From a virus (taxonomy: Duplodnaviria; Caudoviricetes): a DNA stretch of 64,000 nt. Shown piece after piece: positions 41,600 to 56,639 of the stretch. The stretch lies in IMG/VR virus record IMGVR_UViG_3300038679_000051, positions 64,001 to 128,000 of that record; one strand, given 5' to 3'. Numbering within the stretch: position 1 is the first letter of the stretch; each line of letters opens with the position of its first letter. The notes beneath the pieces were generated by a model that had not been told where the DNA came from, did no database searches, and saw nothing but the letters and a program-made list of their open reading frames with translations. A program made the position numbers and the translations under genes.

Positions 41600-41655
41600 C
41601 CCATGACGGGGAGAGAACTCCCCGTTTCGACTAGTTACCATCTAGTCATCGTCAA
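41600..41655 (-). ncRNA. degenerate type I hammerhead ribozyme (H1)
   Basis: Minus strand: TTGACGA-T-GACTAG(ATGGTAA)CTAGTC-GAAA-CGGGGAG..CTCCCCG-TC-ATGGG; core C3 changed, one extra nucleotide, 5' stem I strand lost. Confidence 0.55.
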
Positions 41656-41678
41656 TCAAAACGATTTTAATCTCCTTG

Positions 41679-41770
41679 CCCATTACAAGCACACCAACGG
41701 GCGGCGGACTTCTGTGCCTTATAACCCGTGTGGTGTGCTTGTTTCGATCATTAAGATCTCGTCAGATGGG
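41679..41770 (-). ncRNA. type I hammerhead ribozyme with an extended stem III (H2)
   Basis: CCCAT-CTGACGA-GATC(TTAAT)GATC-GAAA-CAAGCACACCA..TGGTGTGCTTG-TA/ATGGG. Confidence 0.85.
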
Positions 41771-42193
41771 TTTTACCCTTTCAATTATTCCGTTCGGCAA
41801 TTAAATGGCCTTGACGTGTGCCGCTCACGTCGAACATGATCGGTAACTAATTGAAGTGGCACCTCCTTTCGTGATCTCAAGGGTTTTTATCTTAGATCGT
41901 ACTTGTTCTTGCTCACTCCGTTGGTGTCCGTGCCGCCTTGCTCGCTCCGGCGGGTCACAGCTTGCGAAGACGTTTGTGCTGGTCACCTTCAACGTCAATA
42001 ATGACTTCACTTCCATCTTCACATTCTTCCAACTCTTCCTCCGTGCGTTTGCCCTCGTTCACCAACGTCTCGACAGCTTTCTCGTCCGAAATGACCCCTC
42101 TGTTTTGGTCACCGTTACAACCGTCGAACACGATCAGGGCAAATCTGCTCATGTGTTTTCTCCTTAGAATGGGGTTTTAGGTGGGTTTCTTTT

Positions 42194-42253
42194 CCCGTGA
42201 CGGGGAGCGCTTGTTCCTCTCCCCGTTTCGACCATTCGGTCTCGTCAGACGGG
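42194..42253 (-). ncRNA. type I hammerhead ribozyme (H3)
   Basis: CCCGT-CTGACGA-GACC(GAAT)GGTC-GAAA-CGGGGAG..CTCCCCG-TC/ACGGG; GUC site; stem I covaries with the other copies. Confidence 0.9.
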
Positions 42254-42329
42254 TTTGTTCTCCTTCAGTCAAGATTTTAAAATGTTTTTGGAAGTGCGGG
42301 TAAAAACCGTATTCCATCCTTGATGGGGT

Positions 42330-42614
42330 CTAAACTTTTCTCATCACTGTCCTGATTGGACATCGCAATTCTACCCATCCAGCCGCTTTACCTGCTTTGA
42401 AGATTATCTTCTTCGGTTTGTTGTTCCATTCATGATCAATGGACAGATCGAGCATTTCATTCAACTCATCGTAACTCAGTTCAACAGCTGGCTGTTCCAT
42501 CATTCCTTCAATGAGTTCATTTAATTCCTTAATTTTACTAACCACCTTAGTTAGCATTAATTTCCGTAATTCAGTTGCATCCAACAGTCTCTCTTCATTC
42601 ATTCTTTTCTCCAA
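42330..42614 (-). CDS. hypothetical protein
   Basis: Co-oriented ORF. Confidence 0.45.
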   Translation of the reverse strand: MEKRMNEERLLDATELRKLMLTKVVSKIKELNELIEGMMEQPAVELSYDELNEMLDLSIDHEWNNKPKKIIFKAGKAAGWVELRCPIRTVMRKV

Positions 42615-42643
42615 TCTTATCTGGATCCCTCAATTTGGTTTGA

Positions 42644-42952
42644 TTACTTTGCCCCGTCAATTCTTATTCCTTTAAAATTTTCTTTGTTTTTAGATGCAAG
42701 AAATTTTTCAATGGCTTTTCTTTCGTCTTTGCTTAAATCATAATCCGACATATTAAAATCAATTTCATCTTTACCATCCCAATCGATTTCACCATCATAT
42801 GTAAAAACGTATGCTATTGGTACAAAACTGCTTTTATCTTTTGTTCCAATTTTTTGTGCCCCTATGCCAGTGTAAACACAATCTGATTTTTCCCATGTAA
42901 CTATGCCTAATCTCCATCCTGATTCTAAAATTGCATCTATCTCTTTCCGCAT
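42644..42952 (-). CDS. hypothetical protein bracketed by a duplicate of the VWA gene 3' end
   Basis: 25-bp repeat at 42626-42650 and 42962-42986; AT-rich. Confidence 0.55.
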   Translation of the reverse strand: MRKEIDAILESGWRLGIVTWEKSDCVYTGIGAQKIGTKDKSSFVPIAYVFTYDGEIDWDGKDEIDFNMSDYDLSKDERKAIEKFLASKNKENFKGIRIDGAK

Positions 42953-42965
42953 GTTTACTCCTCCC

Positions 42966-44288
42966 TCAATTTGGTTTGATTACTTTTCCCCATGTGGGCA
43001 TTTGATTTGAGGATGATACGACATACCACAACATTGGGTATGATTTCTGTTCTGGCCATTCTAGATAACCGTCGGTGATGACTACGTTGACGTCACCGAT
43101 CAAACCGCGTTCTTCTGCCTCTTTCAGTGCTCTGACGATCGACGTCCCACCACGACCGTGGATTTTAATTTTCTTCCAATCACCTTTCCGGTATTTGCTG
43201 ACGTGTTCTATGCCATGATCAAATTCAATTAATCTGATTTTAGATCGGTAGGCGAGTTTTTCAATGTTGCTGAACGCTTCACTGATTTCATCCGGTCCCA
43301 TTGATCCAGACGTATCACAGAATACGCTTAGATCAACCATCGCCCTGCTGGTCGATCCCGGTATGCCGAATCTAGGGAGTCGGCGATTCAATCTGGAAAA
43401 CGTATTGCGTCTTCCGCCGCATTTCTTCCCCATCCATTCGTTCATCTCACGCATCCAATTAGTGCGTACTTCCTTCAATGCTTTGATGGCTTCTTCAAGA
43501 TGACCCGGTGCGTTTCCAGCGGACTTACATGTCTGTGCGACCATGCCATCAACAATCGCACGAGCATCATCCTCATTTGCCGTGCTGTTATCCCACATAC
43601 CATGATCATCAACCATTTCTGGTTTAGCACCGCACGTCGGACACGTATGTTCATCCTTCTCCTGACCCTGATCATCCTGATTTTGACTACCTCCACCACC
43701 TTGGCCTTGATTCTGGCCTTGATTCTGGCCTTGACCCTTCTGATTCTGGCCTTGACCCTTACCCTTACTCTGGTCATTTTTTGCATTCGGGTCGAAATGA
43801 ATGACCATTGCACCGCATGTCGGACAGATAGTAGAATTTTTCTTCAACCAGTCGTAATACTGTTCTGTGCCGAGATTGCTTTCCGGTGCCGTATACCATA
43901 CGACACTATTTGGAAGATAACATTTTTCGCTATAATCTTTGCCCACGATCTTGATGTTTGGATTATCTTTTGTGCCATTGACAATCGCATCAGCCGCGAT
44001 GTTCCAACATTCCTTGATCCTACTCATTTTCCTGATGCAGTGCAATCTGATGATATGATCAATTTCATGTATGATCACACATGCTAATCCCTCATTACTG
44101 AGACTATCGACGAATTCACGATTGTAGACCGAATCCACCGTGCCATCAGAAATGACCGACACGCCCATCGTTTTACAGTCTCTAGCATTTACCTCACGCC
44201 ACCTCATCATTGAAGCGAAAGTCCCATACCATGGCTTCCGCATAAGAAGTTGGCAGCGCACTTTTTGAATTCTTTCCATTTGGATCAT
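42966..44288 (-). CDS. DUF2201-like metallopeptidase plus VWA-domain protein
   Basis: HEIDH (HExxH), WNIAAD, Q/G-rich linker, MIDAS-like DTSGS, GRGGTS, ITDG. Confidence 0.85.
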   Translation of the reverse strand: MIQMERIQKVRCQLLMRKPWYGTFASMMRWREVNARDCKTMGVSVISDGTVDSVYNREFVDSLSNEGLACVIIHEIDHIIRLHCIRKMSRIKECWNIAADAIVNGTKDNPNIKIVGKDYSEKCYLPNSVVWYTAPESNLGTEQYYDWLKKNSTICPTCGAMVIHFDPNAKNDQSKGKGQGQNQKGQGQNQGQNQGQGGGGSQNQDDQGQEKDEHTCPTCGAKPEMVDDHGMWDNSTANEDDARAIVDGMVAQTCKSAGNAPGHLEEAIKALKEVRTNWMREMNEWMGKKCGGRRNTFSRLNRRLPRFGIPGSTSRAMVDLSVFCDTSGSMGPDEISEAFSNIEKLAYRSKIRLIEFDHGIEHVSKYRKGDWKKIKIHGRGGTSIVRALKEAEERGLIGDVNVVITDGYLEWPEQKSYPMLWYVVSSSNQMPTWGKVIKPN

Positions 44289-44359
44289 TTGTCACCTCCT
44301 TCTCTAGTATTTTTGTCAAACATAAACCGTGGGATGGAACAACAATTGAAAGGAACATC

Positions 44360-45415
44360 ATGTTCAACTGGATCAAAACTCAAAATTCTTTACCTCCTTT
44401 CATCGCAGTCGTCAACTGTGATGACTGCGGTGTTGAAATGACGAGGAAAATACGTCGCGAATCAGATTTACAAATTACTAAACATCATTGTAAACGATGT
44501 ACTGCGAAAAGACAATGGCAGGACCCAAAGTTTCGTGAACTCGTGGTTTCAAGCAGTAGGAAAATTTGGAATGACGAGGAACGTCGTACTAAAATGAGTA
44601 AGATACGAACTGATCCTATTCACGTTGCTAAACTCATTGAGAGGAATAAGACAATCAAACCAGACCCAATAAAGGCGTCGATTGCAGCTAAAGCAACTTG
44701 GCAGAAAATTTTATCGGATCATGAACGACATGTTGCTGCCATAAAAGCAAGAACGAGACAAGCAAAAGAAGCATGGACAAACGACGAATTTCGCAATAAG
44801 GTCGTCATGAATAATAGAAAAAATTGGCAAAACGATGAATATCGTACATCAATCGTCGAATCGTCGAAAGAATTGTGGAAAAATAAGGAGTATAGAGATA
44901 AGATACTCAATAAATTACAAGATCCGGAATATCGCATCAAAATGGCAGAGAAAATGCGCAATAAGTGGCGCACCGACGAACAATTTAGACAAAAAATGCG
45001 CGACCAACCAAAAGTTTCAAGCATTCAAAAGACGCTTTATTCCATATTAGATGATCTTAAAATCAATTATTTTAAAGAACGTGAAGATGGACCGTCAGAC
45101 AAAGAATGTATGATCGGTCCGTATCAATTCGATTGTGTCATTCCTCGTGGCAACAAAACGTTACTCATCGAATGTCAGGGTGATTATTGGCATTCAAAGC
45201 CGGACATCATCAGTAGAGATGCGGCAAAATCTTCTTATATAATGAATAATTTTCCAAATCAATATGAAATTAGATATCTTTGGGAACATGAATTTTCACA
45301 GAAAGATAGAATCGTCAATACTATTAAGCATTGGCTCGACATTAACCAGATCGACGTCGTTGACTTTGAATCACAAAATTGCGTGTCTAACGGCTCATTA
45401 ACTGATCGACGATGA
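44360..45415 (+). CDS. free-standing homing-endonuclease-like protein (PD-(D/E)xK, DUF559/Vsr-like)
   Basis: Helical W..P.FR repeats then YQFDCVIP..LIECQGDYWH..YLWEHE; the only long plus-strand gene in the minus-strand block. Confidence 0.7.
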   Translation: MFNWIKTQNSLPPFIAVVNCDDCGVEMTRKIRRESDLQITKHHCKRCTAKRQWQDPKFRELVVSSSRKIWNDEERRTKMSKIRTDPIHVAKLIERNKTIKPDPIKASIAAKATWQKILSDHERHVAAIKARTRQAKEAWTNDEFRNKVVMNNRKNWQNDEYRTSIVESSKELWKNKEYRDKILNKLQDPEYRIKMAEKMRNKWRTDEQFRQKMRDQPKVSSIQKTLYSILDDLKINYFKEREDGPSDKECMIGPYQFDCVIPRGNKTLLIECQGDYWHSKPDIISRDAAKSSYIMNNFPNQYEIRYLWEHEFSQKDRIVNTIKHWLDINQIDVVDFESQNCVSNGSLTDRR

Positions 45416-45999
45416 GGATTACGCTGTTCTCGGAGACATCCAATCACGATGAGACCGGCATCGTGCCGTAATCGCCGCCCTATCTGGATTAATGGCACAT
45501 CCTCCGCAACCTCTGAAATGACGACGTTGGTGTCCTTAACCAAATAATCGTTGATTCGTCTAGTCCCCGTTGGAAGATTAAAGTGAACGATGCCTTTGTC
45601 ATCGAACTTTTCAATCGTTCCCTTATCCAACATTTTCTTAATCAATTCATCGCGTTGTTTGATGATTTCCTCCGGTGGGGTGGGGATTTTACTTACCGCC
45701 TTGCGTTTGGATGCAATGATCTTTGGTATTCCGGCCATCAACGCATCTATGTCCGCATAATAATTGTTGTTGATGCGAAATTGTTTGCCTTGAATATAAA
45801 CGTTCCAATCAAACGTCTTGCCGTCAATTTCAATTTGCATTTGCGCAAGCAACAGGGAACCATACCTGGCAAATTGTGAACCTCTAGCTTCCGGAGAGAT
45901 GGAGATCACGTATCTCACGCCGTCAATCTTGGGCCATTTCTCCCCAAGTCTCTGTCTGACCAACGCATTGATCTCGTCTATCAATTCTTTGCCGTTCAT
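45259..45999 (-). CDS. hypothetical protein; 3' end overlaps the antisense nuclease gene
   Basis: RBS GAGGAG; last ~50 codons run antisense to the nuclease. Confidence 0.45.
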   Translation of the reverse strand: MNGKELIDEINALVRQRLGEKWPKIDGVRYVISISPEARGSQFARYGSLLLAQMQIEIDGKTFDWNVYIQGKQFRINNNYYADIDALMAGIPKIIASKRKAVSKIPTPPEEIIKQRDELIKKMLDKGTIEKFDDKGIVHFNLPTGTRRINDYLVKDTNVVISEVAEDVPLIQIGRRLRHDAGLIVIGCLREQRNPHRRSVNEPLDTQFCDSKSTTSIWLMSSQCLIVLTILSFCENSCSQRYLISY

Positions 46000-46046
46000 T
46001 CTTGCTCCTCTCTTTCTTCGTCATGAGCGTCGTGACCAATTTCGTT

Positions 46047-46736
46047 TCAACATTCTTTCTCCTTTAACCATTCCCCAAACTTCTTGTCGGTCGCGTCGGC
46101 TCCCGTTTGCATTTCACCTACGAAGCGTTTAAACGTCTCGCTTCTTTCATCGTCGCCCAGTTTAATCAACACCGCATCGGCAGCCACGATGAAATGCATG
46201 AAATTGTTCTTATTGAGATGCACTCTTCGGTATGAGATCCAGTCGATCAACTTTCCAATTTCACCGAATTGCGACTGCAGTCGCAGACTGAGTTCTTTGG
46301 CCATCAGCTTCAAATTGTCCAGCGGGAAGTCGCCGGATTTCATCTTGTTCTTTTTCATTCGTTCTCTTCGCGTTTTCTGTTTCGGATCATAGATCAGAAG
46401 TCCGTCTTTGAACTTTATGTCGTCCGGCAATTTCGTGTAAGGATAGTCAATTACTATTGCACCGTATTTCTTTGCCAATTCACATGCTCTGTTTACGTCT
46501 TGACCGACAAAGACCGGTTTTTCGCTTACTCTTATGTTGTTCCAGTTGGTTTTAATCCAGGTCAGATCGGCGTCTTCCAACGATTCTTTCATGCAGGTAG
46601 CGCTTATTGCTGCGATGATCTCTTCTCTTCCACCGTAAATCACTTCACCGGTGGCGTTGATCAGTGGTTCTGGATTGACGCTCATCTCCCACGTGCCGTC
46701 CTCGTTTTTAACTGCTCCCAGCACTTCCATTTCCAT
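46047..46736 (-). CDS. hypothetical protein
   Basis: AGGAGG RBS just downstream of H4. Confidence 0.55.
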   Translation of the reverse strand: MEMEVLGAVKNEDGTWEMSVNPEPLINATGEVIYGGREEIIAAISATCMKESLEDADLTWIKTNWNNIRVSEKPVFVGQDVNRACELAKKYGAIVIDYPYTKLPDDIKFKDGLLIYDPKQKTRRERMKKNKMKSGDFPLDNLKLMAKELSLRLQSQFGEIGKLIDWISYRRVHLNKNNFMHFIVAADAVLIKLGDDERSETFKRFVGEMQTGADATDKKFGEWLKEKEC

Positions 46737-46759
46737 GTTATCCTCCTTTCGATTAGGCT

Positions 46760-46816
46760 CCCATTAGGGGAGAAAATCCTCCCCTTTCATTCCTGCCACG
46801 GAAATCATCAGATGGG
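46760..46816 (-). ncRNA. type I hammerhead ribozyme with a weakened stem II (H4)
   Basis: CCCAT-CTGATGA-TTTCC(GTGGCA)GGAAT-GAAA-GGGGAG..CTCCCC-TA/ATGGG; first stem II pair is U-U. Confidence 0.7.
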
Positions 46817-47107
46817 CAAAGATGAGTGATAAAACTGAAGAACTAAATGTCCTTGTACTTCTTCACTGACCAGACCGTTTTCCAGCGGCGGATTGACGTC
46901 GTTCGAGAAATTTGCAAGGTGTCCATCCGGTACGGAAACGATCGAACAATGTGGATAACCGCTGCCAAAGTCTAAAGCAATTTTTCTTGCTTCTTCTTGA
47001 TTGAGATGTCCTGGAAGGACGATCGGCTTCACATCATCGTCGAGTCGTCCTTCCATGGTTGGAACTACGATGGTAACATTCATTTTGTCAGCGATCCCCT
47101 CGGTCAT
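46808..47107 (-). CDS. hypothetical protein ending in the H4 core
   Basis: Ends CCC ATC TGA; the stop codon is part of CUGAUGA. Confidence 0.45.
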   Translation of the reverse strand: MTEGIADKMNVTIVVPTMEGRLDDDVKPIVLPGHLNQEEARKIALDFGSGYPHCSIVSVPDGHLANFSNDVNPPLENGLVSEEVQGHLVLQFYHSSLPI

Positions 47108-47113
47108 GACTGT

Positions 47114-47770
47114 TTATTTCTCCAGCACGTCCACTTTGATGTCGGCGATCGCTAAAGCGACGTTAGCGAATCCTGACGCGCCGAGCGTCTTGCGGGCGAT
47201 TTCAGCACGAACCGCTCTTTCCATCGTGCCGATCTTGGAGAGTTTCGTGCGGATTTCGATGATCTTCCGTTGGGCGTCATCGATCGCCTTTTCCAGCATT
47301 TCGTTGCGTTTGATCGCTTTCTTTTCCTCGTCGTTCAACTTCCGTTCCAGTTGCGCATCGTACAGGTTGTTGCAGTATGAGTGTTCTTTGTCAACCGAAA
47401 CGACCACGCTCAACATGAGCGTTTCTGCCTTTTCACACGGTCCCACGATTGACGCCTGCATGCTGCATTTCACTTTCACGTTCAGATCCTTGTACGCTTC
47501 CAGCAGCTTTTTCACTTTCGGCGTCCAGTAATTGGTCGCTGACTGAGAAGTCATCTTTTCGAAGCCGTCCTTGTTCTCTTTCAGTTCTTTTTTCGTCGCC
47601 GCCAGTTCGGCCACGATCTTTTTCTCCTCCACCATCAATTTGTTTTCAAATTCAGAGACCTTAATTGCCACCAGATCTCCCGTCGTCACCTGGGCGCTCA
47701 GCGTGGTGACGTTCTTCACATCGAGTTCTTTCTTCATCAGCATCTTCCTCCTTGAAAAGGTGGTTCCCAC
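47114..47770 (-). CDS. coiled-coil hypothetical protein
   Basis: 218 aa, heptad-rich. Confidence 0.55.
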   Translation of the reverse strand: MGTTFSRRKMLMKKELDVKNVTTLSAQVTTGDLVAIKVSEFENKLMVEEKKIVAELAATKKELKENKDGFEKMTSQSATNYWTPKVKKLLEAYKDLNVKVKCSMQASIVGPCEKAETLMLSVVVSVDKEHSYCNNLYDAQLERKLNDEEKKAIKRNEMLEKAIDDAQRKIIEIRTKLSKIGTMERAVRAEIARKTLGASGFANVALAIADIKVDVLEK

Positions 47771-47787
47771 GTCCCCTTCTTGACTTT

Positions 47788-47849
47788 CCCATTAGGGGAG
47801 GATTTCCTCTCCCCTTTCGGCTGGTCGTCATCCAACCTCATCAGATGGG
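47788..47849 (-). ncRNA. type I hammerhead ribozyme (H5)
   Basis: CCCAT-CTGATGA-GGTTGG(ATGACGA)CCAGCC-GAAA-GGGGAG..CTCCCC-TA/ATGGG-AAAGTCA; loop TGAC complements tail GTCA. Confidence 0.9.
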
Positions 47850-48128
47850 CCGTTGAAGTTCAGAGCCAGGATACGTTTCAAAAAATTCAGGATCTTCAGG
47901 ATCAAGACACGGAAATTCTTTCTTTATCCTTGCTGGAATCCCCATCAAATCATCCAGCGTCGCCCTGCGTTCAGTGTGATCATCCGTCAAATCACCCACG
48001 TTGTAAGCCGTCCCGTTCCCATTGACGCAATGCTCTTCTGCCACGTAGACCATTTTACCATTTTCCAAAACAAGAATTTGGTAAAGTCCGTCAGCATCCA
48101 CGTTAATTGACGTCCTAATCTTTGCCAT
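47841..48128 (-). CDS. hypothetical protein ending in the H5 core
   Basis: Ends CGG CCC ATC TGA. Confidence 0.5.
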   Translation of the reverse strand: MAKIRTSINVDADGLYQILVLENGKMVYVAEEHCVNGNGTAYNVGDLTDDHTERRATLDDLMGIPARIKKEFPCLDPEDPEFFETYPGSELQRPI

Positions 48129-48164
48129 CTGATTTCCTCCTCTTGAGTAAATCTGAACGTGGTC

Positions 48165-49820: not shown

Positions 49821-49829
49821 GCACCCCTC

Positions 49830-50282
49830 CTAATATACGGAAAATCCACCACAGTTCTGTAGAAATGTAATGAATTCCTTTAGGTGATCCAAATTAATTC
49901 TGTATGGACTGACCAGATCATCCCTACTGCCCTTGTACGTTTTCATATTGACAAACGCATTGGTTTTCTCGTCAATTACCAACGAATTTGTAGGAAGACG
50001 TAATTCATTGTCACCAAGAACAAAACCAAATTCGGTAGCCAGTGCTGGTTTGTTGATAATTTCGTTTAATTCCTCGGCTACGCGCAGACATTGTTCGTCG
50101 GTCAATCCCGCACCGTCGTTATACCTCATTGCAACGTACACTTCCTCAGAAATCAACTCATTATTGTTTCGTTTGTTGATGATGCCCAACAATTCATGTA
50201 GTGGATGCCATGACCAAATATTAGCCCTGAAATACTCGCCCTGTTCATTTCTCGGTTTAGTCCCGGTTACGTCCATCCCCAT
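49830..50282 (-). CDS. conserved phage protein
   Basis: MGMDV...GEYFRANIWSWHPL...F..FLQNCGGFSVY. Confidence 0.6.
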   Translation of the reverse strand: MGMDVTGTKPRNEQGEYFRANIWSWHPLHELLGIINKRNNNELISEEVYVAMRYNDGAGLTDEQCLRVAEELNEIINKPALATEFGFVLGDNELRLPTNSLVIDEKTNAFVNMKTYKGSRDDLVSPYRINLDHLKEFITFLQNCGGFSVY

Positions 50283-51037
50283 TCATTTACCCTCCTTTTC
50301 GTCTCTCCATGTTTTATCTCCTCTCTAAGGGCTGGGTCCTTGACATATTGAAGTGCCCAACCATCCTGTTGCGCTGCTACCATACATATTTCCAGTGTCT
50401 GTTCTTTAACAAATTGAAGTGCGTAACAATTTTGTCTTACTGCTGCCATGCACATTTCCGGCGTCTGTTCTTTGTTGTTCGCAGAATATTTGACATATCT
50501 AAGTGCCCAACCATGTTGTTTTACTGCCGCCATACATATTTCTGGCGTTTGTTCTTTGACATATCGAAGTGCATCACCATCTTGTTGCACTGCTGCCATA
50601 CATATTTCTGGCGTCTGTTCTTTGACATATTCAAGTGCCGAACCATTTTGTTGTACTGCTGCCAGATATAATTCCGGCGTCTGTTCCTTGACATAATCGA
50701 GTGCAAAACCGTTTCGTTTTACTGCTACCATGCACAATTCCGGCGTCTGTTCCTTAACATAATGAAGTGCCAGACCATCTCGTTTTACCGCCGCTAGACA
50801 TATGTCTGGCGTCTGCTCTTCAACAAATTCAAGCGCTCGACGATTTTGTTGCACTGCCGCCATGCATATTTCAGGAAATTGCTCATTTAGGTGTTTGAGT
50901 ACATTCCCTAAACCTATTTCATCATTCATCAATTTCTTGACAATCGTTGCATCCTTCATTCGTTCATAATCAATCTTCCTCATTGCCTGGATCACGTCAT
51001 TTAATTGTTCTTTGGTTACGTTCGTCATCCAGTGCAC
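50267..51037 (-). CDS. DUF4116-like repeat protein with MHW leader (GTG start)
   Basis: About 8 repeats; flanked by a perfect 37-bp direct repeat at 50311-50347 and 51038-51074. Confidence 0.75.
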   Translation of the reverse strand: MHWMTNVTKEQLNDVIQAMRKIDYERMKDATIVKKLMNDEIGLGNVLKHLNEQFPEICMAAVQQNRRALEFVEEQTPDICLAAVKRDGLALHYVKEQTPELCMVAVKRNGFALDYVKEQTPELYLAAVQQNGSALEYVKEQTPEICMAAVQQDGDALRYVKEQTPEICMAAVKQHGWALRYVKYSANNKEQTPEMCMAAVRQNCYALQFVKEQTLEICMVAAQQDGWALQYVKDPALREEIKHGETKRRVNEWGWT

Positions 51038-51137
51038 GTTTTATCTCCTCTCTAAGGGCTGGGTCCTTGACATACTTAAGTGCCTGACCATCTTGTCTTA
51101 CTGCCGCTGCCAGCCGTCGTTGCAGTCGTTGCTCCTT

Positions 51138-51458
51138 TCATCTCCATTCCCACAGACATGAGTTTATTTTGATGCGTTTATTGCTTTTCCGCAACCTGTC
51201 GCCCAGGTCTTTCAGAGATGACTTATTGAACCAGAAACCAACTCGTTCCCATTTATCCTTGGGATACCAATCACAAGCGACAACATCATTTTTTACTACT
51301 TCCAGAAACAACCGCCCATCATCCAACAGGAGAACGACCAGATTCTCCCTGACGGCAAACGCCTTGAAATCATAAGCTTTGCCCATGATTTCTTCTCGTT
51401 CAAATTCATTTGCCGTTCTGGGTTTCATATACAGTTGTGCAAGTGCATTCATTCCCAT
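51138..51458 (-). CDS. hypothetical protein
   Basis: RBS AGGAGG. Confidence 0.45.
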   Translation of the reverse strand: MGMNALAQLYMKPRTANEFEREEIMGKAYDFKAFAVRENLVVLLLDDGRLFLEVVKNDVVACDWYPKDKWERVGFWFNKSSLKDLGDRLRKSNKRIKINSCLWEWR

Positions 51459-51476
51459 TTTTAATCCTCCTTGATG

Positions 51477-51665
51477 TCAGAACTCGTCCACATCGCCATA
51501 TTTGGTTAGAACGGCGATGACTGCCTCTTTGATTTGCCCAGCGATTTTCTCAACGTCTGCAGTCCCATCACGGATCTTAATTAATTCAAGATCAATAAAG
51601 ATCTCGACGTCTTCCTTCTTCTGTGAAGTCAGAATAATGTTAACGTCCAGTTGGCTGACTGTCAT
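51477..51665 (-). CDS. hypothetical protein
   Basis: ATGA coupling. Confidence 0.45.
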   Translation of the reverse strand: MTVSQLDVNIILTSQKKEDVEIFIDLELIKIRDGTADVEKIAGQIKEAVIAVLTKYGDVDEF

Positions 51666-51904
51666 CGCTCGTTTCTCCTTAATGGTAGTTTTCTGAGTTC
51701 GTTCTCGATTGCTTTCCCAATATAAGGGCTGAACATAGATAACAATGCCGGTGAAATCTTTTTCTTTACCTTCGGTTCCATCCGTTCAATATTTGTGGAG
51801 GGAACCTGCCGAGCACAACATTTCTTCTTCTTTTTGCCGCTGCCACACGAACATGGCTTATTCATGTTTGCAGTGTCCTTGACATATGCCGTGGTACTTG
51901 CCAT
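51662..51904 (-). CDS. SEC-C metal-binding motif protein
   Basis: NKPCSCGSGKKKKKCC. Confidence 0.7.
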   Translation of the reverse strand: MASTTAYVKDTANMNKPCSCGSGKKKKKCCARQVPSTNIERMEPKVKKKISPALLSMFSPYIGKAIENELRKLPLRRNER

Positions 51905-51921
51905 ATCTCATTGGTTCTCTC

Positions 51922-52248
51922 CTACCATTCAGTCCACACGTCACACACCAGTTTAGTGAGGTTCGCTTCTTCGATTTCGTACTTGCCCCGCATTTCCGGT
52001 AAGGCGTAAACGTATTTCCCGTCTTCCTTGATGACGAACGTACAAAAGCCCGAATCAAAGAAGACGTCGGTACCGTCTGGTACTTCAAACGAGCCGTGCT
52101 CGTCGATTTTATCATCGATATTGAAACCAGGACTTTCCTTGATGGCTTTCTTGGAGATTAAAACCATCTTCATTCGGTCGTGGCAAACGGCGTAGTTGAG
52201 CGTCGTCTTTCCACGTTTGGTCTTGATCTTATCCTTTATCTGTGTCAT
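51922..52248 (-). CDS. hypothetical protein
   Basis: ATGA coupling. Confidence 0.45.
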   Translation of the reverse strand: MTQIKDKIKTKRGKTTLNYAVCHDRMKMVLISKKAIKESPGFNIDDKIDEHGSFEVPDGTDVFFDSGFCTFVIKEDGKYVYALPEMRGKYEIEEANLTKLVCDVWTEW

Positions 52249-52622
52249 TTGGTCATATCGTTTCTAGTGTTTTCATCCATTCCATACAGCATATCACGGA
52301 CGGCCTTAATTGCTTTCTCAAGGTCTTCTGATGAGATCTCATCAGGCTCGCTCATGAGATGGTCCCACATGTATTCGGCCAATGCAGGGATGAACGAATT
52401 GTCTAAATCATTCACGGTCGTTGCGGTTCCGCTCATCATCATGACTACGGAAAAATCTACTGCCCTCATCTGCCAACCAATGACGTACTTCATGCTGAGA
52501 TAACAAAGATTGTTCAGTTCTTCAGTGGTTGGCACGTGCGTAGTAAAATCAACCAGTACCGGTGCGTTCTTGTTCTTGTCCTCAATCATCTTAATCCAAT
52601 CATGTAGTTCTTTTCTTGTCAT
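52245..52622 (-). CDS. hypothetical protein
   Basis: RBS AAGGAG. Confidence 0.5.
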   Translation of the reverse strand: MTRKELHDWIKMIEDKNKNAPVLVDFTTHVPTTEELNNLCYLSMKYVIGWQMRAVDFSVVMMMSGTATTVNDLDNSFIPALAEYMWDHLMSEPDEISSEDLEKAIKAVRDMLYGMDENTRNDMTK

Positions 52623-52682
52623 GGCGTTCTCCTTAAATGGTTATTAGTGTTTTCTGAGTTCGTTTTATTCATCCGTTCCTCG

Positions 52683-52928
52683 TTATTCATTAAGGCGCTG
52701 GAAGTTCTTAAAATCATCACTCCAAATTTGACGACTCGCATCGTTTTCAAATTTCACGATCATTTTGGGTCGACCGTCTTCAAATGGTTCAACGTCAGTC
52801 ACTACACCAGTCATTCCTTTACTGACATGAAGATGCTGTTTTTCGCCATCAGACCAGAAAACATCATTCAAAACGACAACCCGATCACCCTTTATCATTT
52901 TCTTTTCCCTTTCTTTTGTCATTTTCAT
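52683..52928 (-). CDS. small SH3/KOW-like protein
   Basis: KGDRVVVL...GMTGVV; starts just after H6. Confidence 0.45.
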   Translation of the reverse strand: MKMTKEREKKMIKGDRVVVLNDVFWSDGEKQHLHVSKGMTGVVTDVEPFEDGRPKMIVKFENDASRQIWSDDFKNFQRLNE

Positions 52929-52953
52929 TTATTATTTCCCAACATCTTAGTTT

Positions 52954-53012
52954 CCCATTAGGGGATATGAGATCCCCTTTCGACTAGTTACTAGCTAGTC
53001 TCATCAGATGGG
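52954..53012 (-). ncRNA. type I hammerhead ribozyme (H6)
   Basis: CCCAT-CTGATGA-GACTAG(CTAGTAA)CTAGTC-GAAA-GGGGAT..ATCCCC-TA/ATGGG-AAACTA; loop TAGT complements tail ACTA. Confidence 0.9.
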
Positions 53013-53119
53013 TCAATTATGGTTCCGAGGCATATCCCATACAGTAATCACATTCATAAATCATATGCATATGACATCTACATCCCGGCGGTCTACTTCT
53101 GACATCCGCCTCTTCCAAA

Positions 53120-53413
53120 TCACACCTGAAAAACATCCGGTGCACGCCAGGTGATCCATTCCCTATCCCAGAATCTCAAATCACTCTTTTCATCTGCTGT
53201 TCGGACCATAAACATACCATTCCCCATATCCATAACAAACCATCTATAAACACCATCTGGTTTGTCAGACATATAACAGACCGGTCGTTCCCCGTTCTCC
53301 AACAGAAAAACATCACACTCCCAACATTTCACAATCACATGCGCACCAACTAGTTCAGCCAACGCATCGAGATCATCATGGTTTTTCACGTTATAATCCC
53401 CCTGAACAATCAC
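53120..53413 (-). CDS. hypothetical protein
   Basis: Co-oriented; strongly G/T-biased coding strand. Confidence 0.45.
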   Translation of the reverse strand: MIVQGDYNVKNHDDLDALAELVGAHVIVKCWECDVFLLENGERPVCYMSDKPDGVYRWFVMDMGNGMFMVRTADEKSDLRFWDREWITWRAPDVFQV

Positions 53414-53604
53414 AAAACACGTACCAACTCAGTTTCATCATCAAACGAAATAACTTCATTTATTTCACAACTAGTAGTATAATACACAATGTCACGCTTC
53501 GAATAATTAAAGTTAGAACAACCCATAATCTCTTGAACAGACTTAAACGTCAAATCATCACTCAAAAAAACACCATCAGACTTCCGCCTAATCCTAAATC
53601 TCAT
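53410..53604 (-). CDS. hypothetical protein
   Basis: GTGA overlap with the next gene; G/T-biased. Confidence 0.4.
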   Translation of the reverse strand: MRFRIRRKSDGVFLSDDLTFKSVQEIMGCSNFNYSKRDIVYYTTSCEINEVISFDDETELVRVL

Positions 53605-53868
53605 CCAAATGCCTCATCACTCATCGCATTCCCTCCCAATCATCGAAACAATCCCGTTGTTGGTGTTGGTTGAAGAACCCTTTAAGTGCGTGTAAGAGGC
53701 TTGATTATCGCAAATATATTATATATTTTAATTATTTCACTAATAGGATATTAACAGCTTGCTAATGCTTACTTAATAGCTCCCGTATGCGACCCTAATG
53801 CACATAGAGCAAGCGTTGACGCTCATTGTGCAGCTCATTGTGCACTGACTTATTGCACACCGAGCAAG

Positions 53869-54081
53869 CGTTGACGCTCATTGTGCATCAATACGTTCTG
53901 GGTTAGTTTGAACCAGAACAAAGAAAACCGCTATCCACATTTAAGATGCTCCGGTTTTCCCGGCTACATTTTACGTGGAAATCACCCAATCTAACGCTTG
54001 CGGCGTTAGCTCTAAGGGTGACTTGTTGCGGCAAAACGTTGACGCTCATTGTGCATCAATACGTTCTGGGTTAGTTTGAAC
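53869..54081. repeat. 45-bp direct repeat duplicating the 3' end of the receiver gene
   Basis: CGTTGACGCTCATTGTGCATCAATACGTTCTGGGTTAGTTTGAAC at 53869-53913 and 54037-54081; partial third copy near 53807-53832. Confidence 0.85.
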
Positions 54082-54384
54082 TGGATCACACCGAACCAAC
54101 TCGGTAACACTAATTCTGATGTACCCCATTGCCACTAACGCACGAGCGATGTTTTCTCTCCCCACTGGATTCATAGTTACTAATACGACCGCTTCTGGTT
54201 GATAGGCAGGATTTTGTTCCAGCCAATTGGTTATATCATATCCCGTCTTCTCCTCACCTAAATCGTGGTCCAAGTACAGGACATCCCAGGGACCATTCTG
54301 TAATGCCACAATTCCGTCATCATATGTTCTGGCTGTGCGGTGGACGGTCATTACTCTTAAATCATCAATCAGAAGCATTTTCAT
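54046..54384 (-). CDS. stand-alone receiver domain of the cyclic-phosphate-processing type
   Basis: LLIDDLR...LYLDHDLGEEKTGYDITNWL...TMNPVGRENI. Confidence 0.7.
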   Translation of the reverse strand: MKMLLIDDLRVMTVHRTARTYDDGIVALQNGPWDVLYLDHDLGEEKTGYDITNWLEQNPAYQPEAVVLVTMNPVGRENIARALVAMGYIRISVTELVRCDPVQTNPERIDAQ

Positions 54385-54395
54385 ATGGCATCTCC

Positions 54396-54650
54396 TCAGA
54401 CATCTGGTTCCCGTTCTTTATGCCTGGCAAAACGCGACCGCGTTTCTTCTGCTCCCGCGTTATAACCAGCACACCATCGTTGGTTCCAGGCATTCAAATG
54501 AATCTCAATAAATTTCCCGACGACATCCATAGCAACTTCATGTGTGCAACCTGTCGTTTTACGAATATAAATTGCCATCTCTCGGTGCCAATTTGGTGTT
54601 TCGGCATTTTGAAGTTCATCGTGATCCATTTTGGCACCCTCCTCCTTCAT
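54396..54650 (-). CDS. hypothetical protein
   Basis: Co-oriented ORF. Confidence 0.4.
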   Translation of the reverse strand: MKEEGAKMDHDELQNAETPNWHREMAIYIRKTTGCTHEVAMDVVGKFIEIHLNAWNQRWCAGYNAGAEETRSRFARHKEREPDV

Positions 54651-54800
54651 GATTTACCCACAAGAATCCGTCCCAGTCGTTTGTGACCAGCATGTTTGTA
54701 CCATTTCTTCCACCAAATGGCGACTTCTTTTGCCGACCATTCCTTGTTGAATTCCTCGGCAGCTTGTTCTGCGGCTACATCCATTCCGTCTGGGATCATG

Positions 54801-55145
54801 TCATTTCTCCTTGATCGTTTTATCACAATGCCAGTAACAATCATCACCTTGTTGGAGATTCCAAACACGGAATGATACTGCTTTAAATGACGGTTTGCCG
54901 TCGACTCCTGGTCGAGCAGCATTTTCGAAAACGCCCACAGGGACTTTCAAGATGTAATTCAGTGCAGCAGCAGGATTGACAACAACTACACCTTCGTACT
55001 CCTCATCTTTATCACCAGCAGCAGTTTCACTGAATGCATCCTCATCACCAACGTGGACCAACTCGATGCGAAGCTGGTCTGCCAACTGAATCTGATCCTC
55101 GGTCGGTACATGTCTTGAAATGAATGCGAATCTCTTTTTTCTCAT
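54801..55145 (-). CDS. hypothetical phage protein
   Basis: FAFISRHVPT.DQ..LA...ELVHVGD.DAF...VVVVNPAAAL...GVFEN..R motif. Confidence 0.55.
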   Translation of the reverse strand: MRKKRFAFISRHVPTEDQIQLADQLRIELVHVGDEDAFSETAAGDKDEEYEGVVVVNPAAALNYILKVPVGVFENAARPGVDGKPSFKAVSFRVWNLQQGDDCYWHCDKTIKEK

Positions 55146-55253
55146 CTCTCCCTCCCTTTCGTTTGGTGGATGTTATTTGTGGGGTTTCTACATATACAAG
55201 CCTATTGTCATATCTGACCGATTTCGGGGGATATAACAACATATACGTTTCTA

Positions 55254-55439
55254 TTAGATGACATCATAACCGTTGAGGAAGATAACACCATCACCGCGAC
55301 GAGCACGACGGTGTGCAGCTTTCTTCAGCTGCTTTTTGATTTTCTGAGAACAACGGGTCTTCGCACGACAAGACCATGACCACTTCCAGTCGTTGGAGAA
55401 ATATTCCTTCTCTACGATCTTGCTGGTGCTTCGACGCAT
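55254..55439 (-). CDS. small basic protein inside the inverted repeat
   Basis: AGGAGG RBS directly after H7; KKAAHRRARR. Confidence 0.5.
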   Translation of the reverse strand: MRRSTSKIVEKEYFSNDWKWSWSCRAKTRCSQKIKKQLKKAAHRRARRGDGVIFLNGYDVI

Positions 55440-55466
55440 GCCACACCTCCTTTCAGTTTGGTGGCT

Positions 55467-55523
55467 CCCATTAGGGGAGGTTTCCCTCCCCTTTCGACCG
55501 TGCCACCGGTCTCCTCAGATGGG
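55467..55523 (-). ncRNA. type I hammerhead ribozyme (H7)
   Basis: CCCAT-CTGAGGA-GACCG(GTGGCA)CGGTC-GAAA-GGGGAGG..CCTCCCC-TA/ATGGG-AGCCAC; loop GTGGC complements tail GCCAC. Confidence 0.9.
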
Positions 55524-55682
55524 CTGCAGCACCCTAGCTTCTTCCTGCACGCGGGTTCTCTTCGGCTTACTGGGGTACTTTGCATATGAACCAATCCAAT
55601 GAAGAGTTGGTTCATGTGCTTTTCCCCCATCTTCAGCAGCTAGTTTCGGTCGAGGGCTTTCGACCGTTGTGCGGTGCTGCAT
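55515..55682 (-). CDS. possible 55-aa ORF ending in the H7 core
   Basis: MQHRTTVESP...RVLQPI-TGA, read by hand; not in the ORF track. Confidence 0.3.
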   Translation of the reverse strand: MQHRTTVESPRPKLAAEDGGKAHEPTLHWIGSYAKYPSKPKRTRVQEEARVLQPI

Positions 55683-55956
55683 TCTTATTTTTTACGAATA
55701 TCGCATAAGAAACCTCCTTCTTTAATTGTACCGGGATCTACGGTCAGGAGCACAAGCATATTTTGCCTCCCAGTATCTAATGGCTCCCTCCGGACTGGGT
55801 CTTAATTCACAAGAATGTCGCACCTCCTTTCTTGGTTTGTATGTTCATCGGCAATAAAAGCGTATATGTTGCTATATCCCCCGAAATCGGTCAGATATGA
55901 CAATAGGCTTGTATATGTTGCCACCGGGGATGATTTATTGTCCCCGGTGGCACAGG

Positions 55957-56163
55957 TCATTTGGCTTGCAGCGCAGCCTCGATAGCTGCCTGCAGGTCGA
56001 TTACCTGCATGTGGCGTGCACGATTCAACATCTTTATGTAATTCGCGGCTTCATCGACCGTCCCACGATAGACGGTCTGACCACTTCTTTTCCTGATTTC
56101 CACCATCTTCTTGTCTGGGGACGGGAAGCATTTCAGTCCCAACTGGCACAGGTTTTCATTCAT
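55957..56163 (-). CDS. hypothetical protein
   Basis: AGGAGG RBS. Confidence 0.5.
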   Translation of the reverse strand: MNENLCQLGLKCFPSPDKKMVEIRKRSGQTVYRGTVDEAANYIKMLNRARHMQVIDLQAAIEAALQAK

Positions 56164-56291
56164 TGGACACCTCCTTTTTCTGACTTTACTCTACTCGATT
56201 AGGATCACAATGATCCCTGGGTAGACAACCCTCTTTGTGGAAGGTTGTCTACCGAGGGATCATACCCTCGGCGGGCTTTCACCCGGTGTGA

Positions 56292-56525
56292 CTAGTCCTG
56301 CGAGGCTTCCCATTCAACTTCACCCAACGGGAAGGGTCCGAACCCCTTGGTACAGACATGGGTCTTTTCTCCCGCACCCATGACATAGCTGATGACCCGA
56401 TCCGCCGTTTCTCCGGCAATACGGATCTTGTCACCTTTCTTGAGATTCGCACCAGCCGCTCCCACTTTCAAGCTGCCCGTGTCGTTGTTCGTCACTTTGT
56501 TCGCCATTCTACACCTCCCTCTCAA
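56292..56525 (-). CDS. small protein, tandem paralogue A (probable start MANKVT)
   Basis: NNDTGSLKVG..G.NLK.GDKIRI...ISY.MGAGEKTHVCTKGFGPFPLGEVE. Confidence 0.6.
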   Translation of the reverse strand: MRGRCRMANKVTNNDTGSLKVGAAGANLKKGDKIRIAGETADRVISYVMGAGEKTHVCTKGFGPFPLGEVEWEASQD

Positions 56526-56577
56526 ATTAGAAGATTATCGTCGGGTGAAACACTCACCTTACGAAACCTTCTGGTTT

Positions 56578-56639
56578 CCCATTAGGGAGAGAAAATCCTC
56601 CCCCTTTCGGCTGGGGACCACCCAGCCTCATCAGATGGG
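56578..56639 (-). ncRNA. type I hammerhead ribozyme (H8)
   Basis: CCCAT-CTGATGA-GGCTGGG(TGGTC)CCCAGCC-GAAA-GGGGGAGG..TCTCTCCC-TA/ATGGG-AAACCA; loop TGGT complements tail ACCA. Confidence 0.9.

What the first reader, a model, noticed from the sequence alone, without database searches (positions are those of the whole stretch)
41600..56639. Family of eight type I hammerhead ribozymes punctuating a phage polycistronic unit
Seven complete copies (41679-41770, 42194-42253, 46760-46816, 47788-47849, 52954-53012, 55467-55523, 56578-56639) and one decayed copy (41600-41655) lie at gene junctions on the coding (minus) strand. Seen in sequence: stem I CCC(A/G)T / A(T/C)GGG, core CUGA(U/C/G)GA, stem II, GAAA, stem III, and a U-H site (CUA, GUA or GUC). 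Stems II and III differ between copies but keep pairing. Established: this is the hammerhead consensus in the open-stem-I (type I) topology. Inference: the phage uses self-cleavage to cut its long transcript into units. Each cut leaves a 5'-OH end a few tens of nt upstream of an RBS, which could alter stability or translation. I know of no description of such a dense, homogeneous hammerhead array in one phage operon, but have not searched.
Basis: partly seen in the sequence, partly recalled or inferred. Interest (0 to 1): 0.93.

Follow-up and report, generated by a model that had tools for sequence, protein, structure and literature searches.

The report
Hammerhead ribozyme array in jumbo phage
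Seven intact self-cutting hammerhead RNAs and one relic sit at gene junctions in a 15-kb small-gene block of a 320-kb groundwater phage and probably chop one long transcript into shorter messages; this layout has been known in phages since 2011, so it is a clean new example, not a new kind of system.

Summary
Seven complete type I hammerheads lie on the minus strand at exactly the stated coordinates. An eighth copy, at 41600-41655, has lost its 5' half. All seven carry the full catalytic core, fold into the three-way junction as their minimum-energy structure, and share the strand of the genes. They are the only such motifs in the complete 320,399-bp genome; shuffled genomes give 0.2.

Stems II and III covary strongly across 18 family members. 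Five of the seven copies also have a 4-5 bp pseudoknot between loop II and the first bases after stem I (P about 1e-4).

Rfam 15 misses them all at its curated cut-offs. One weak hit, to the RAGATH-1 hammerhead model, was the only response.

Its novelty claim fails. Perreault et al. 2011 (PMC3088659) described clustered hammerheads flanking phage genes, and also the pseudoknot. This scan has already noted such arrays on other DNA: 158 notes in at least 131 genomes.

Local points of interest:
- Three copies contain the upstream gene's stop codon in their core.
- Hammerheads bound a block that splits an otherwise adjacent AAA/VWA gene pair.
- A cRec gene, predicted to process cyclic-phosphate ends, lies inside the array.

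Verdict: real, new member of a known kind, moderate interest.

The parts
56578..56639 (-). HH7, a complete type I hammerhead. The cut is predicted between 56583 and 56582. Loop II UGGU (56617-56620) can pair with ACCA (56572-56575).
   Evidence: (75.9 bits). The stop codon of the upstream 68-aa ORF (56640-56642) abuts the motif.
55467..55523 (-). HH6, a complete type I hammerhead with N7 = G. The cut is predicted at 55472/55471. Loop II GUGGC can pair with GCCAC (55461-55465).
   Evidence: (76.7 bits). The 55-aa ORF 55515-55682 ends with the UGA of the core (CCC AUC UGA).
52954..53012 (-). HH5, a complete type I hammerhead. The cut is predicted at 52959/52958. Loop II UAGU can pair with ACUA (52948-52951).
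   Evidence: (72.9 bits).
47788..47849 (-). HH4, a complete type I hammerhead. The cut is predicted at 47793/47792. Loop II UGAC can pair with GUCA (47781-47784).
   Evidence: (76.4 bits). The 95-aa ORF 47841-48128 ends with the UGA of the core.
46760..46816 (-). HH3, a hammerhead with a U-U mismatch at 10.1-11.1, so possibly weakened. The cut is predicted at 46765/46764. Its pseudoknot is only 3 bp.
   Evidence: (73.2 bits). The 99-aa ORF 46808-47107 ends with the UGA of the core.
42194..42253 (-). HH2, a divergent copy with stem I CCCGU/ACGGG and a GUC cut site. The cut is predicted at 42199/42198. No pseudoknot partner was found.
   Evidence: RAGATH-1-hammerhead 26.7 bits, below the 56.3 cut-off; 39.4 bits; 53.4 bits.
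41679..41770 (-). HH1, with a long, branched stem III and a GUA cut site. The cut is predicted at 41684/41683. Loop II UUAAU can pair with AUUAA (41667-41671), which lies further from stem I than in the other copies.
   Evidence: 30.7 bits; 45.5 bits.
41600..41655 (-). Decayed copy. Stem II, GAAA, stem III and GUC-AUGGG are kept. The 5' strand of stem I and the CUGANGA box are lost.
   Evidence: (30.5 bits, model positions 13-54 only).
54046..54384 (-). 112-aa cRec protein (receiver-like domain predicted to process cyclic phosphates), inside the HH6-HH5 unit. It is the only copy in the genome.
   Evidence: Pfam PF20274, E 3.6e-19. Single genome hit. The predicted role comes from PMC7824862. 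Any link to the hammerheads is inference.
48165..49334 (-). MoxR-like AAA_5 ATPase, in the HH5-HH4 unit.
42966..44288 (-). DUF2201 metallopeptidase/VWA protein, the usual neighbour of the ATPase. Here it lies 3.9 kb downstream, beyond HH4 and HH3.
   Evidence: The two genes are adjacent in relatives.
41000..57400 (-). Co-oriented block of about 40 mostly orphan small genes at the 5' end of a minus-strand gene run of more than 57 kb. The hammerheads divide it into units of 0.4-5.1 kb.
   Evidence: No excess of sigma-70-like promoters; terminator-like sites 22 against 14.5 (sd 3.6) in shuffles, several of them hammerhead hairpins, with no clear terminator at unit boundaries.

Best explanation
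These are seven functional, or recently functional, type I hammerhead self-cleaving ribozymes plus one relic. They are transcribed as part of a long minus-strand polycistronic RNA of a 320-kb jumbo phage.

Each ribozyme folds just after the stop codon of the upstream gene. In three copies it folds around that stop codon. The fold has a 5-bp open stem I, and in most copies a 4-5 bp pseudoknot between loop II and the first bases after stem I stabilises it.

Each ribozyme then cuts itself 3' of H17. The upstream message is left ending in the compact ribozyme fold with a 2',3'-cyclic phosphate. The downstream message is left starting with 5'-OH AUGGG plus a short A-rich leader, followed in most units by a ribosome-binding site.

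The likely result is eight independent RNA units (0.4-5.1 kb, holding 1-12 genes), each with its own stability and translation. The ribozymes would act as natural insulators between gene cassettes in a fast-changing accessory region.

Shown here: the motifs, their folds, the covariation, the pseudoknot statistics, their placement, and their restriction to this block. Inferred: transcription as one unit, cleavage in vivo, and the effect on expression.
For: - All core positions are present in all seven copies, and the cut-site base H17 is A or C.
- There are no other credible copies in 320 kb, against 0.2 expected by chance.
- The minimum-energy fold is the hammerhead junction for all seven.
- Across 18 family members, 99.2% of cells are paired and 11 of 17 pairs show compensatory changes; 0 of 500 shuffles reach the observed covariation score (1 of 500 reaches the count of compensatory pairs), and slid controls collapse.
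- The loop II / 3' tail complementarity is 4-5 bp in 5 of 7 copies and differs in sequence between copies. Its probability is 0 of 20,000 with shuffled tails, 1e-4 with random 12-mers, and 0 of 1854 derangements. It matches the pseudoknot that was shown experimentally to be needed for fast cleavage in other hammerheads (PMC3088659).
- All copies share the strand of the genes. Each starts 0-5 nt after, or on, an upstream stop codon in five of the seven; at five of the seven (HH2-HH6) a ribosome-binding site and start follow within about 22-50 nt of the cut, against about 75 nt after HH7.
- Relatives carry the same subfamily in equivalent small-gene blocks. L044 has two good copies, one with a different, compensated stem I. 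L027 has a truncated relic next to the ATPase gene.
- No clear terminators separate the units.
Against: - Cleavage was not observed.
- Rfam's curated hammerhead models do not score any copy at threshold.
- HH3 has a U-U at 10.1-11.1. HH2 and HH3 lack a convincing pseudoknot. With only a 5-bp stem I, these two may be slow at physiological Mg2+.
- The nearly identical stems I and III in HH3-HH7 may reflect recent copying and not selection.
- A relic here and another in L027 show that copies can be lost without obvious harm.
- Nothing here shows that processing changes expression.
Confidence: 0.72

Rival explanations
1. The hammerheads are mainly passengers. They are junction modules that travel with horizontally exchanged gene cassettes, or they act as short repeats where cassettes recombine. 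Any self-cleavage is then tolerated and not used by the phage.
For: - The AAA ATPase and DUF2201/VWA genes are adjacent or nearly so in four relatives. Here they are split by 3.9 kb that contains HH4 and HH3.
- Small units A, B, E and G have 48-50% GC, against a genome mean of 41.5% (sd 3.2).
- A high-depth DNA run holds a variant that diverges from the window at 50276 and whose divergent part carries a hammerhead 3' half. It also holds short-sided joints at hammerhead borders.
- Decayed copies exist here and in L027.
- Stems I and III are near-identical among five copies, as expected from recent copying.
Against: - The cores are intact in all seven copies. Stem II and the pseudoknot partners have diverged while keeping their pairing, which indicates purifying selection on the fold.
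- The joints in the DNA run have sides of only 21-30 nt, which the tool flags as unreliable.
- This reading does not exclude a processing role.
Confidence: 0.17
2. Cleavage is conditional and coupled to translation. Where the upstream stop codon lies inside the core (HH3, HH4, HH6), a terminating ribosome covers stem I and the CUGA box. The ribozyme then folds and cuts only when the upstream gene is poorly translated. This would tie downstream message fate to upstream translation.
For: In three of seven copies the ORFs end exactly on CCC AUC UGA, and in two more within 0-5 nt of stem I. Structures that overlap a terminating ribosome's footprint cannot form while the ribosome is present (general knowledge).
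Against: The overlap may be a by-product of compact gene packing, or of the motif supplying a stop codon in one frame. HH1 and HH2 lie 76-184 nt from the nearest upstream stop. There are no data on kinetics.
Confidence: 0.08
3. Pairs of hammerheads release RNA segments that are then re-joined. The products would be circular or shuffled RNAs, made by the reverse hammerhead reaction or by a host RtcB-type ligase. The phage cRec protein would act on the 2',3'-cyclic phosphate ends.
For: Five copies share the same stem I, so any 5' product could in principle pair with any 3' product. A cRec gene, predicted to process cyclic phosphates, lies inside the array and is unique in the genome. Perreault et al. 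raised splicing or circularisation as a possibility.
Against: Perreault et al. looked for such products and did not detect them. The phage encodes no RtcB, no RNA ligase and no 2H phosphoesterase. The cRec role is itself only a prediction, and it is also linked to NAD/ADP-ribose conflict systems. The copy-specific pseudoknots would disfavour non-cognate pairing.
Confidence: 0.03

Closest known systems
Clustered hammerhead ribozymes flanking genes in prophages and phages (Perreault et al. 2011, PLoS Comput Biol, PMC3088659)
   Same: Full hammerhead consensus. Several copies on the coding strand flank single genes or short gene blocks. The proposed role is processing of long phage transcripts. 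A pseudoknot between the stem I and stem II sides replaces loop-loop contacts.
   Different: There are seven copies plus a relic over 15 kb of a complete 320-kb jumbo phage, with units of up to 12 genes; the published experimental examples are tandem triplets. All copies belong to one homogeneous type I subfamily with a 5-bp stem I. Three copies contain the upstream stop codon in the core.
RAGATH-1 hammerhead (Rfam RF03152)
   Same: Type I topology, a 5-bp stem I, a short stem II and a GC-rich stem III. It is the only Rfam family that gives any hit here (HH2).
   Different: The score of 26.7 bits is far below the 56.3-bit cut-off. The family's conserved 5' hairpin is not present. The other six copies give no hit even at E up to 10.
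Rfam Hammerhead_1 (RF00163) and the other curated hammerhead models
   Same: The same catalytic core and three-helix junction.
   Different: None of the copies here reaches these models' thresholds, and none of the related copies in 15 metagenome loci does either. Those models expect longer stem I arms or other topologies.
Mixed self-cleaving ribozyme arrays in phage contigs (hammerhead followed by pistol ribozymes)
   Same: In loci L043 and L039, a hammerhead of this same subfamily is followed on the same strand by three or two pistol ribozymes within about 1.4 kb. This is the same junction-punctuating design.
   Different: Those arrays mix ribozyme classes and are tighter. The window uses hammerheads only, and Rfam finds no other ribozyme class in it.
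Engineered ribozyme insulators (RiboJ-type) and Csy4-processed synthetic operons (own knowledge)
   Same: The functional analogy: a cut between cistrons uncouples the downstream leader from its upstream context.
   Different: Those are synthetic devices. A natural role of this kind is inferred here, not shown.

Membership tests
Hammerhead ribozyme, type I topology | Core strand C3-U4-G5-A6-N7-G8-A9 directly 3' of the stem I 5' strand | tested here: met
   CUGA(U/G/C)GA is present in all seven copies. It is damaged in the relic at 41600-41655.
Hammerhead ribozyme, type I topology | G12-A13-A14 followed by the A15.1-U16.1 pair, and H17 (not G) at the scissile site | tested here: met
   GAAA ... 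U-A in six copies and U-C in HH2.
Hammerhead ribozyme, type I topology | Three helices around the core, supported by covariation | tested here: met
   The minimum-energy folds give the junction for all seven. 99.2% of cells are paired and 11 of 17 pairs are compensatory; 0 of 500 shuffles reach the covariation score.
Hammerhead ribozyme, type I topology | Watson-Crick pair at 10.1-11.1 (usually G-C) closing stem II | tested here: met
   G-C in six copies. HH3 has U-U, so this one copy fails the criterion used by Perreault et al..
Hammerhead ribozyme, type I topology | Stem I open, stems II and III closed by loops | tested here: met
   The order is 5' stem I strand, core, stem II hairpin, GAAA, stem III hairpin, UH, 3' stem I strand in all seven copies.
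Hammerhead ribozyme, type I topology | Tertiary contact between the stem I side and the stem II side (loop-loop contact or pseudoknot) | tested here: inconclusive
   A 4-5 bp pseudoknot between loop II and the 3' tail is present in five of seven copies, with P about 1e-4. It is 3 bp in HH3 and absent in HH2. Whether it forms was not tested physically.
Hammerhead ribozyme, type I topology | Site-specific self-cleavage that gives 2',3'-cyclic phosphate and 5'-OH ends | not testable with these tools
   Only assembled contigs of two metatranscriptomes were available. They cannot show ends or strand.
Rfam curated hammerhead families (RF00163, RF00008, RF02276, RF02275, RF02277) | Score at or above the family's gathering threshold | tested here: not met
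   There were no hits at gathering thresholds in the window, and none from these families at E up to 10 in 38000-60000.
RAGATH-1 hammerhead (RF03152) | Score of at least 56.3 bits, including the conserved 5' hairpin | tested here: not met
   Only HH2 gives a hit, at 26.7 bits, and the hairpin part aligns poorly.
Clustered phage/prophage hammerheads (Perreault et al. 2011) | Several hammerheads on the coding strand that flank genes or short gene blocks of a phage | tested here: met
   Seven copies lie at gene junctions of a co-oriented block in a complete phage genome.

The most novel reading that the evidence does not exclude
The array is more than a set of passive cut sites. In this reading, the shared stem I (CCCAU/AUGGG) together with copy-specific loop II/tail pseudoknots forms an addressing system that decides which RNA ends can re-associate. 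The phage's single cRec protein, encoded inside the array, then acts on the 2',3'-cyclic phosphate ends that the ribozymes create. That would give the phage enzymatic control over the fate of ribozyme-made RNA ends (stabilisation, re-ligation or circularisation).
Probability: 0.05. Interest if true: 0.75.

Novelty: new member of a known kind. Interest (0 to 1): 0.35.

Why it matters
The biological role of bacterial and phage hammerheads is still described as largely elusive (PMC6765202). This locus is a tidy test case. It lies in a complete jumbo-phage genome, it holds seven paralogous ribozymes with naturally varied stem II/pseudoknot pairs, and a relic serves as a built-in negative control. 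Two further features give testable hypotheses: stop codons inside the core, and a cRec gene predicted to act on cyclic-phosphate ends.

It also shows a practical gap. This type I subfamily, with its 5-bp stem I and tail pseudoknot, occurs in many viral and metagenome contigs but is invisible to Rfam 15 at the curated thresholds. Alignment A7 and model R2 could seed a family. None of this changes the general picture set out in 2011.

Tried and rejected
- **Rfam, gathering thresholds, whole window:** nothing. At E up to 10 on 38000-60000 there was only a sub-threshold RAGATH-1 hit and two chance snoRNA hits.
- **Megablast of the block against GenBank phages:** no match.
- **Back-translated search for the ATPase in IMG/VR:** nothing.
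- **Very strict pattern that fixes the stem III sequence, in IMG/VR:** no match.
- **Metatranscriptome check:** two RNA runs hold 33-41% of the sampled words of the stretch, but only as assembled contigs. None of the 16 listed RNA pieces bridges a predicted cut site. However, the list is incomplete, cover is patchy, the pieces do not stop at a common place, and DNA carry-over cannot be excluded. This is evidence neither for nor against cleavage or transcription.
- **Joints in DNA run X4 at hammerhead borders:** these have 21-30 nt sides and may be repeat artefacts. I treat them as a lead only.
- **RNA end-healing and sealing genes in the genome (RtcB, RNA_ligase, 2_5_RNA_ligase2):** none found.
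- **cRec in other hammerhead-bearing records:** only one small record could be searched, so the result is uninformative.
- **Near-identical strain contigs (L047-L049):** 99.9-100% identical over the block, so they give no extra covariation.
- **Sigma-70 promoter and terminator scan:** no promoter excess, and no clear terminators on the coding strand at unit boundaries; terminator-like sites slightly exceed shuffles, partly because hammerhead hairpins match the pattern. Jumbo phages may use other promoters.
- **Chance or hairpin-only explanations for the motifs:** rejected on the shuffle and covariation results.
Full report
**Setting.** The window is bases 64001-128000 of a single 320,399-bp contig. 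IMG/VR classes it as a complete virus record with direct terminal repeats. Its GC content is 41.5%. Near-identical DNA occurs in groundwater and coal metagenomes. Almost every gene from window position 1 to about 57400 lies on the minus strand, and a divergent plus-strand unit starts at 57394. The reported features therefore sit in the first 16 kb of a very long co-oriented gene run.

**Observation.** Reading the minus strand at the stated coordinates shows the full hammerhead consensus in all seven 'complete' copies. The order is:
- a 5-nt 5' strand of stem I (CCCAU, or CCCGU in HH2)
- CUGA-N-GA
- a stem II hairpin
- GAAA
- a stem III hairpin that begins with A15.1 and ends with U16.1
- H17 (A in six copies, C in HH2)
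- the 3' strand of stem I (AUGGG or ACGGG)

I wrote a structure-aware scan that requires the core boxes and all three helices. Over the whole genome, on both strands, it returned these seven. It also returned one alternative register of HH2 and one 137-nt hit with a 3-bp stem I that looks like chance. Twenty shuffled genomes averaged 0.2 hits.

A covariance model built from HH3-HH7 found HH2 at 39 bits, HH1 at 31 bits and the relic as a local match of 30 bits. It found nothing else in the window with filters off, or in the whole genome. A broader model built from 18 family members gave the same eight places.

Each copy's minimum-energy fold is the three-way junction.

The eighth copy (41600-41655) keeps stem II, GAAA, stem III and GUC-AUGGG. 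It has no 5' partner for stem I, and its 5' core box is damaged.

**Is the structure under selection?** On an alignment of 18 members (ours plus single copies from viral and metagenome contigs), 99.2% of cells form standard pairs. Eleven of 17 pairs carry changes on both sides. No shuffle out of 500 reaches the observed covariation score, and sliding the partners by one to three columns collapses the pairing to 30-53%. That alignment was fitted to the model, which favours the structure. Even so, the compensatory changes in stems II and III are plain in the raw sequences.

Stem I hardly varies in that set because the database patterns fixed it. The copy at L044 3545-3601 is an exception, with UCUGC/GCAGA. 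It was found by the model and not by a pattern.

**A tertiary contact.** With only 5 bp in an open stem I, there is no loop I to contact loop II. Instead, in five of seven copies loop II is complementary over 4-5 Watson-Crick pairs to bases that start 1-3 nt after stem I (7 nt in HH1). The paired sequences differ from copy to copy:

| Copy | Loop II | 3' tail partner |
|---|---|---|
| HH7 | UGGU | ACCA |
| HH6 | GUGGC | GCCAC |
| HH5 | UAGU | ACUA |
| HH4 | UGAC | GUCA |
| HH1 | UUAAU | AUUAA |

Shuffled tails never reached the observed total in 20,000 trials. Random 12-mers from the window reached it at a rate of 1e-4. None of 1854 loop/tail derangements reached it.

This is the pseudoknot solution described for all three hammerhead types by Perreault et al., who showed by mutation and rescue that it is needed for fast cleavage at 0.5 mM Mg2+. 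HH3 has only 3 bp and HH2 has none. HH3 also has U-U at 10.1-11.1. These two may be slower.

**Placement relative to genes**.
- HH7 starts directly after the stop of a 68-aa ORF.
- HH5 starts 4 nt after a stop.
- In HH3, HH4 and HH6 the upstream ORF reads CCC AUC UGA, so its stop codon is the UGA of the catalytic core.
- HH2 lies 76 nt and HH1 184 nt from the nearest upstream stops.

Downstream, a start codon follows the cut by about 22-50 nt at HH2-HH6, usually with a good ribosome-binding site. The distance is about 75 nt at HH7. HH1 is followed by the relic and then by a gene 115 nt from the cut.

In a type I hammerhead nearly the whole ribozyme stays on the 5' product. The upstream message would therefore end in a compact fold with a 2',3'-cyclic phosphate. 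The downstream message would begin with 5'-OH AUGGG. These end chemistries are established hammerhead chemistry; their effect on stability here is inference.

A simple consensus scan shows no excess of sigma-70 promoters. Terminator-like sites are somewhat above shuffles (22 against 14.5, sd 3.6), but several are hammerhead hairpins and none clearly marks a unit boundary on the coding strand.

**Gene content.** The block holds about 40 genes, and most have no Pfam or PHROG match. The recognisable ones are:
- a MoxR-like AAA_5 ATPase (48165-49334)
- its usual partner, a DUF2201 metallopeptidase/VWA protein (42966-44288)
- three DUF4116 repeat proteins
- a 112-aa cRec domain protein (54046-54384, PF20274, E 3.6e-19)

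cRec was named by Iyer et al. as a predicted enzyme that processes cyclic phosphate or cyclic ADP-ribose, and it is found in some jumbo phages. It is the only copy in this genome. The genome has no RtcB, RNA ligase or 2H phosphoesterase. Its position inside an array of elements that generate 2',3'-cyclic phosphates is suggestive but may be coincidence.

**Relatives.** No close phage genome is in GenBank or IMG/VR. The ATPase does have metagenomic relatives.
- In four of them (L028, L044, L045 and the contig of P0006) the ATPase and the VWA gene are adjacent or separated by one small gene. In this phage they are 3.9 kb apart. The intervening DNA contains HH4, two genes, HH3, two more genes and an opposite-strand ORF. 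The hammerheads therefore bound material that looks inserted.
- The closest relative (L027, 72% identity) has a 3'-truncated hammerhead relic 2 nt after its ATPase gene, and a different gene order.
- A more distant relative (L044, 44% identity) has two good hammerheads of the same design in its upstream small-gene block.

The subfamily is thus a recurring but unstable feature of this phage group.

Units A, B, E and G have 48-50% GC, near the genome's maximum. One high-depth DNA run holds a strain variant that leaves the window sequence at 50276 and whose divergent part carries a hammerhead 3' half. Three independent assemblies of the same strain all break at 50305-50340. Together these points fit cassette turnover at ribozyme-marked junctions, but the evidence is thin.

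**Wider distribution.** Pattern scans found the same design as single copies in 10 IMG/VR contigs and 15 metagenome contigs. The design is a 5-bp stem I CCCAU/AUGGG, a UA cut site, and a tail partner for loop II. None of them reaches any Rfam hammerhead threshold. In two of those loci the hammerhead is followed on the same strand by two or three pistol ribozymes within about 1.4 kb. Junction-punctuating ribozyme arrays are therefore not special to this phage.

**Prior knowledge.** Perreault et al. 2011 state that multiple hammerheads often flank individual genes or short gene blocks in prophages. They state that this implies processing of long phage transcripts into gene-length mRNAs, and that about 40% of hammerheads use a pseudoknot. 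A 2019 review still calls the bacterial role largely elusive. The comparative jumbo-phage survey I read does not mention ribozymes. This scan's own notebook lists 158 notes of hammerhead arrays in at least 131 genomes, including arrays of six to eight and one of about thirty. Those notes are unverified, but they agree with the literature that the layout is recurrent.

**Expression.** Two groundwater metatranscriptome runs contain parts of the block. They are available only as contigs. Laying them shows patchy cover, no listed piece across a predicted cut, and no common stopping point. The tool itself warns that DNA may be present in such libraries. I draw no conclusion from this.

**Verdict.** The mechanistic reading is reasonable and conventional, but it is untested here. 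The novelty claim is not upheld. This is a new and well-formed member of a known kind. Its modest extra value comes from the Rfam-invisible subfamily, the stop codons inside the core, the cassette-boundary pattern and the cRec neighbour.

Noticed in passing
window 60168-61433 (+): A 421-aa protein matches the PurZ-type phage family (phrog_1211, E 5.7e-34) and Pfam Adenylsucc_synt. This hints at a 2-aminoadenine (Z) DNA pathway in this jumbo phage.
   Followed up: partly
window 54046-54384 (-): A stand-alone cRec domain protein (predicted to process cyclic phosphates) is the only one in the genome. The phage has no RtcB, RNA ligase or 2H phosphoesterase.
   Followed up: partly
window 42966-49334 (-): The MoxR-like ATPase and its DUF2201/VWA partner are adjacent in relatives. 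Here they are split by 3.9 kb of orphan genes bounded by HH4 and HH3. In L027 the order of the two genes is reversed.
   Followed up: yes
window 44360-45415 (+): A 351-aa ORF lies on the opposite strand inside the minus-strand block. It has only a weak, sub-threshold match to a restriction-endonuclease-like domain (PF18741, E 0.0015). Gene callers in other assemblies also call it.
   Followed up: no
L043 7186-8612 (-) and L039 3323-4161 (+): In other phage-like contigs, a hammerhead of the same subfamily is followed on the same strand by three (L043) or two (L039) pistol ribozymes. These are compact mixed ribozyme arrays.
   Followed up: partly
L027 1884-1941 (+): The closest relative carries a hammerhead relic directly after its ATPase gene. 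The 5' core, stem II and stem III are kept. The U-H site and the stem I 3' strand are replaced.
   Followed up: yes
window 50276-50340: This is a strain-variation or assembly break point. A variant contig in DNA run X4 diverges here, and its divergent part includes a hammerhead 3' half. Three other assemblies of the same strain all start at 50305-50340.
   Followed up: partly
window 55326-55876: Both metatranscriptome runs have their highest contig depth here (18.7 and 15.2, against 14 or less in every other bin). This is the segment just upstream of HH6. It could be a stable 5' cleavage product or a small RNA, but contigs cannot show that.
   Followed up: no
window 40503-41568 and 50267-51037 (-): Three DUF4116 repeat proteins are present. 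Two of them lie in tandem immediately downstream of the hammerhead relic.
   Followed up: no
window 41771-42193, 46817-47787, 55524-57390: The small hammerhead-bounded units have 48-50% GC, against a genome mean of 41.5%. This is consistent with foreign origin, but the segments are short.
   Followed up: partly
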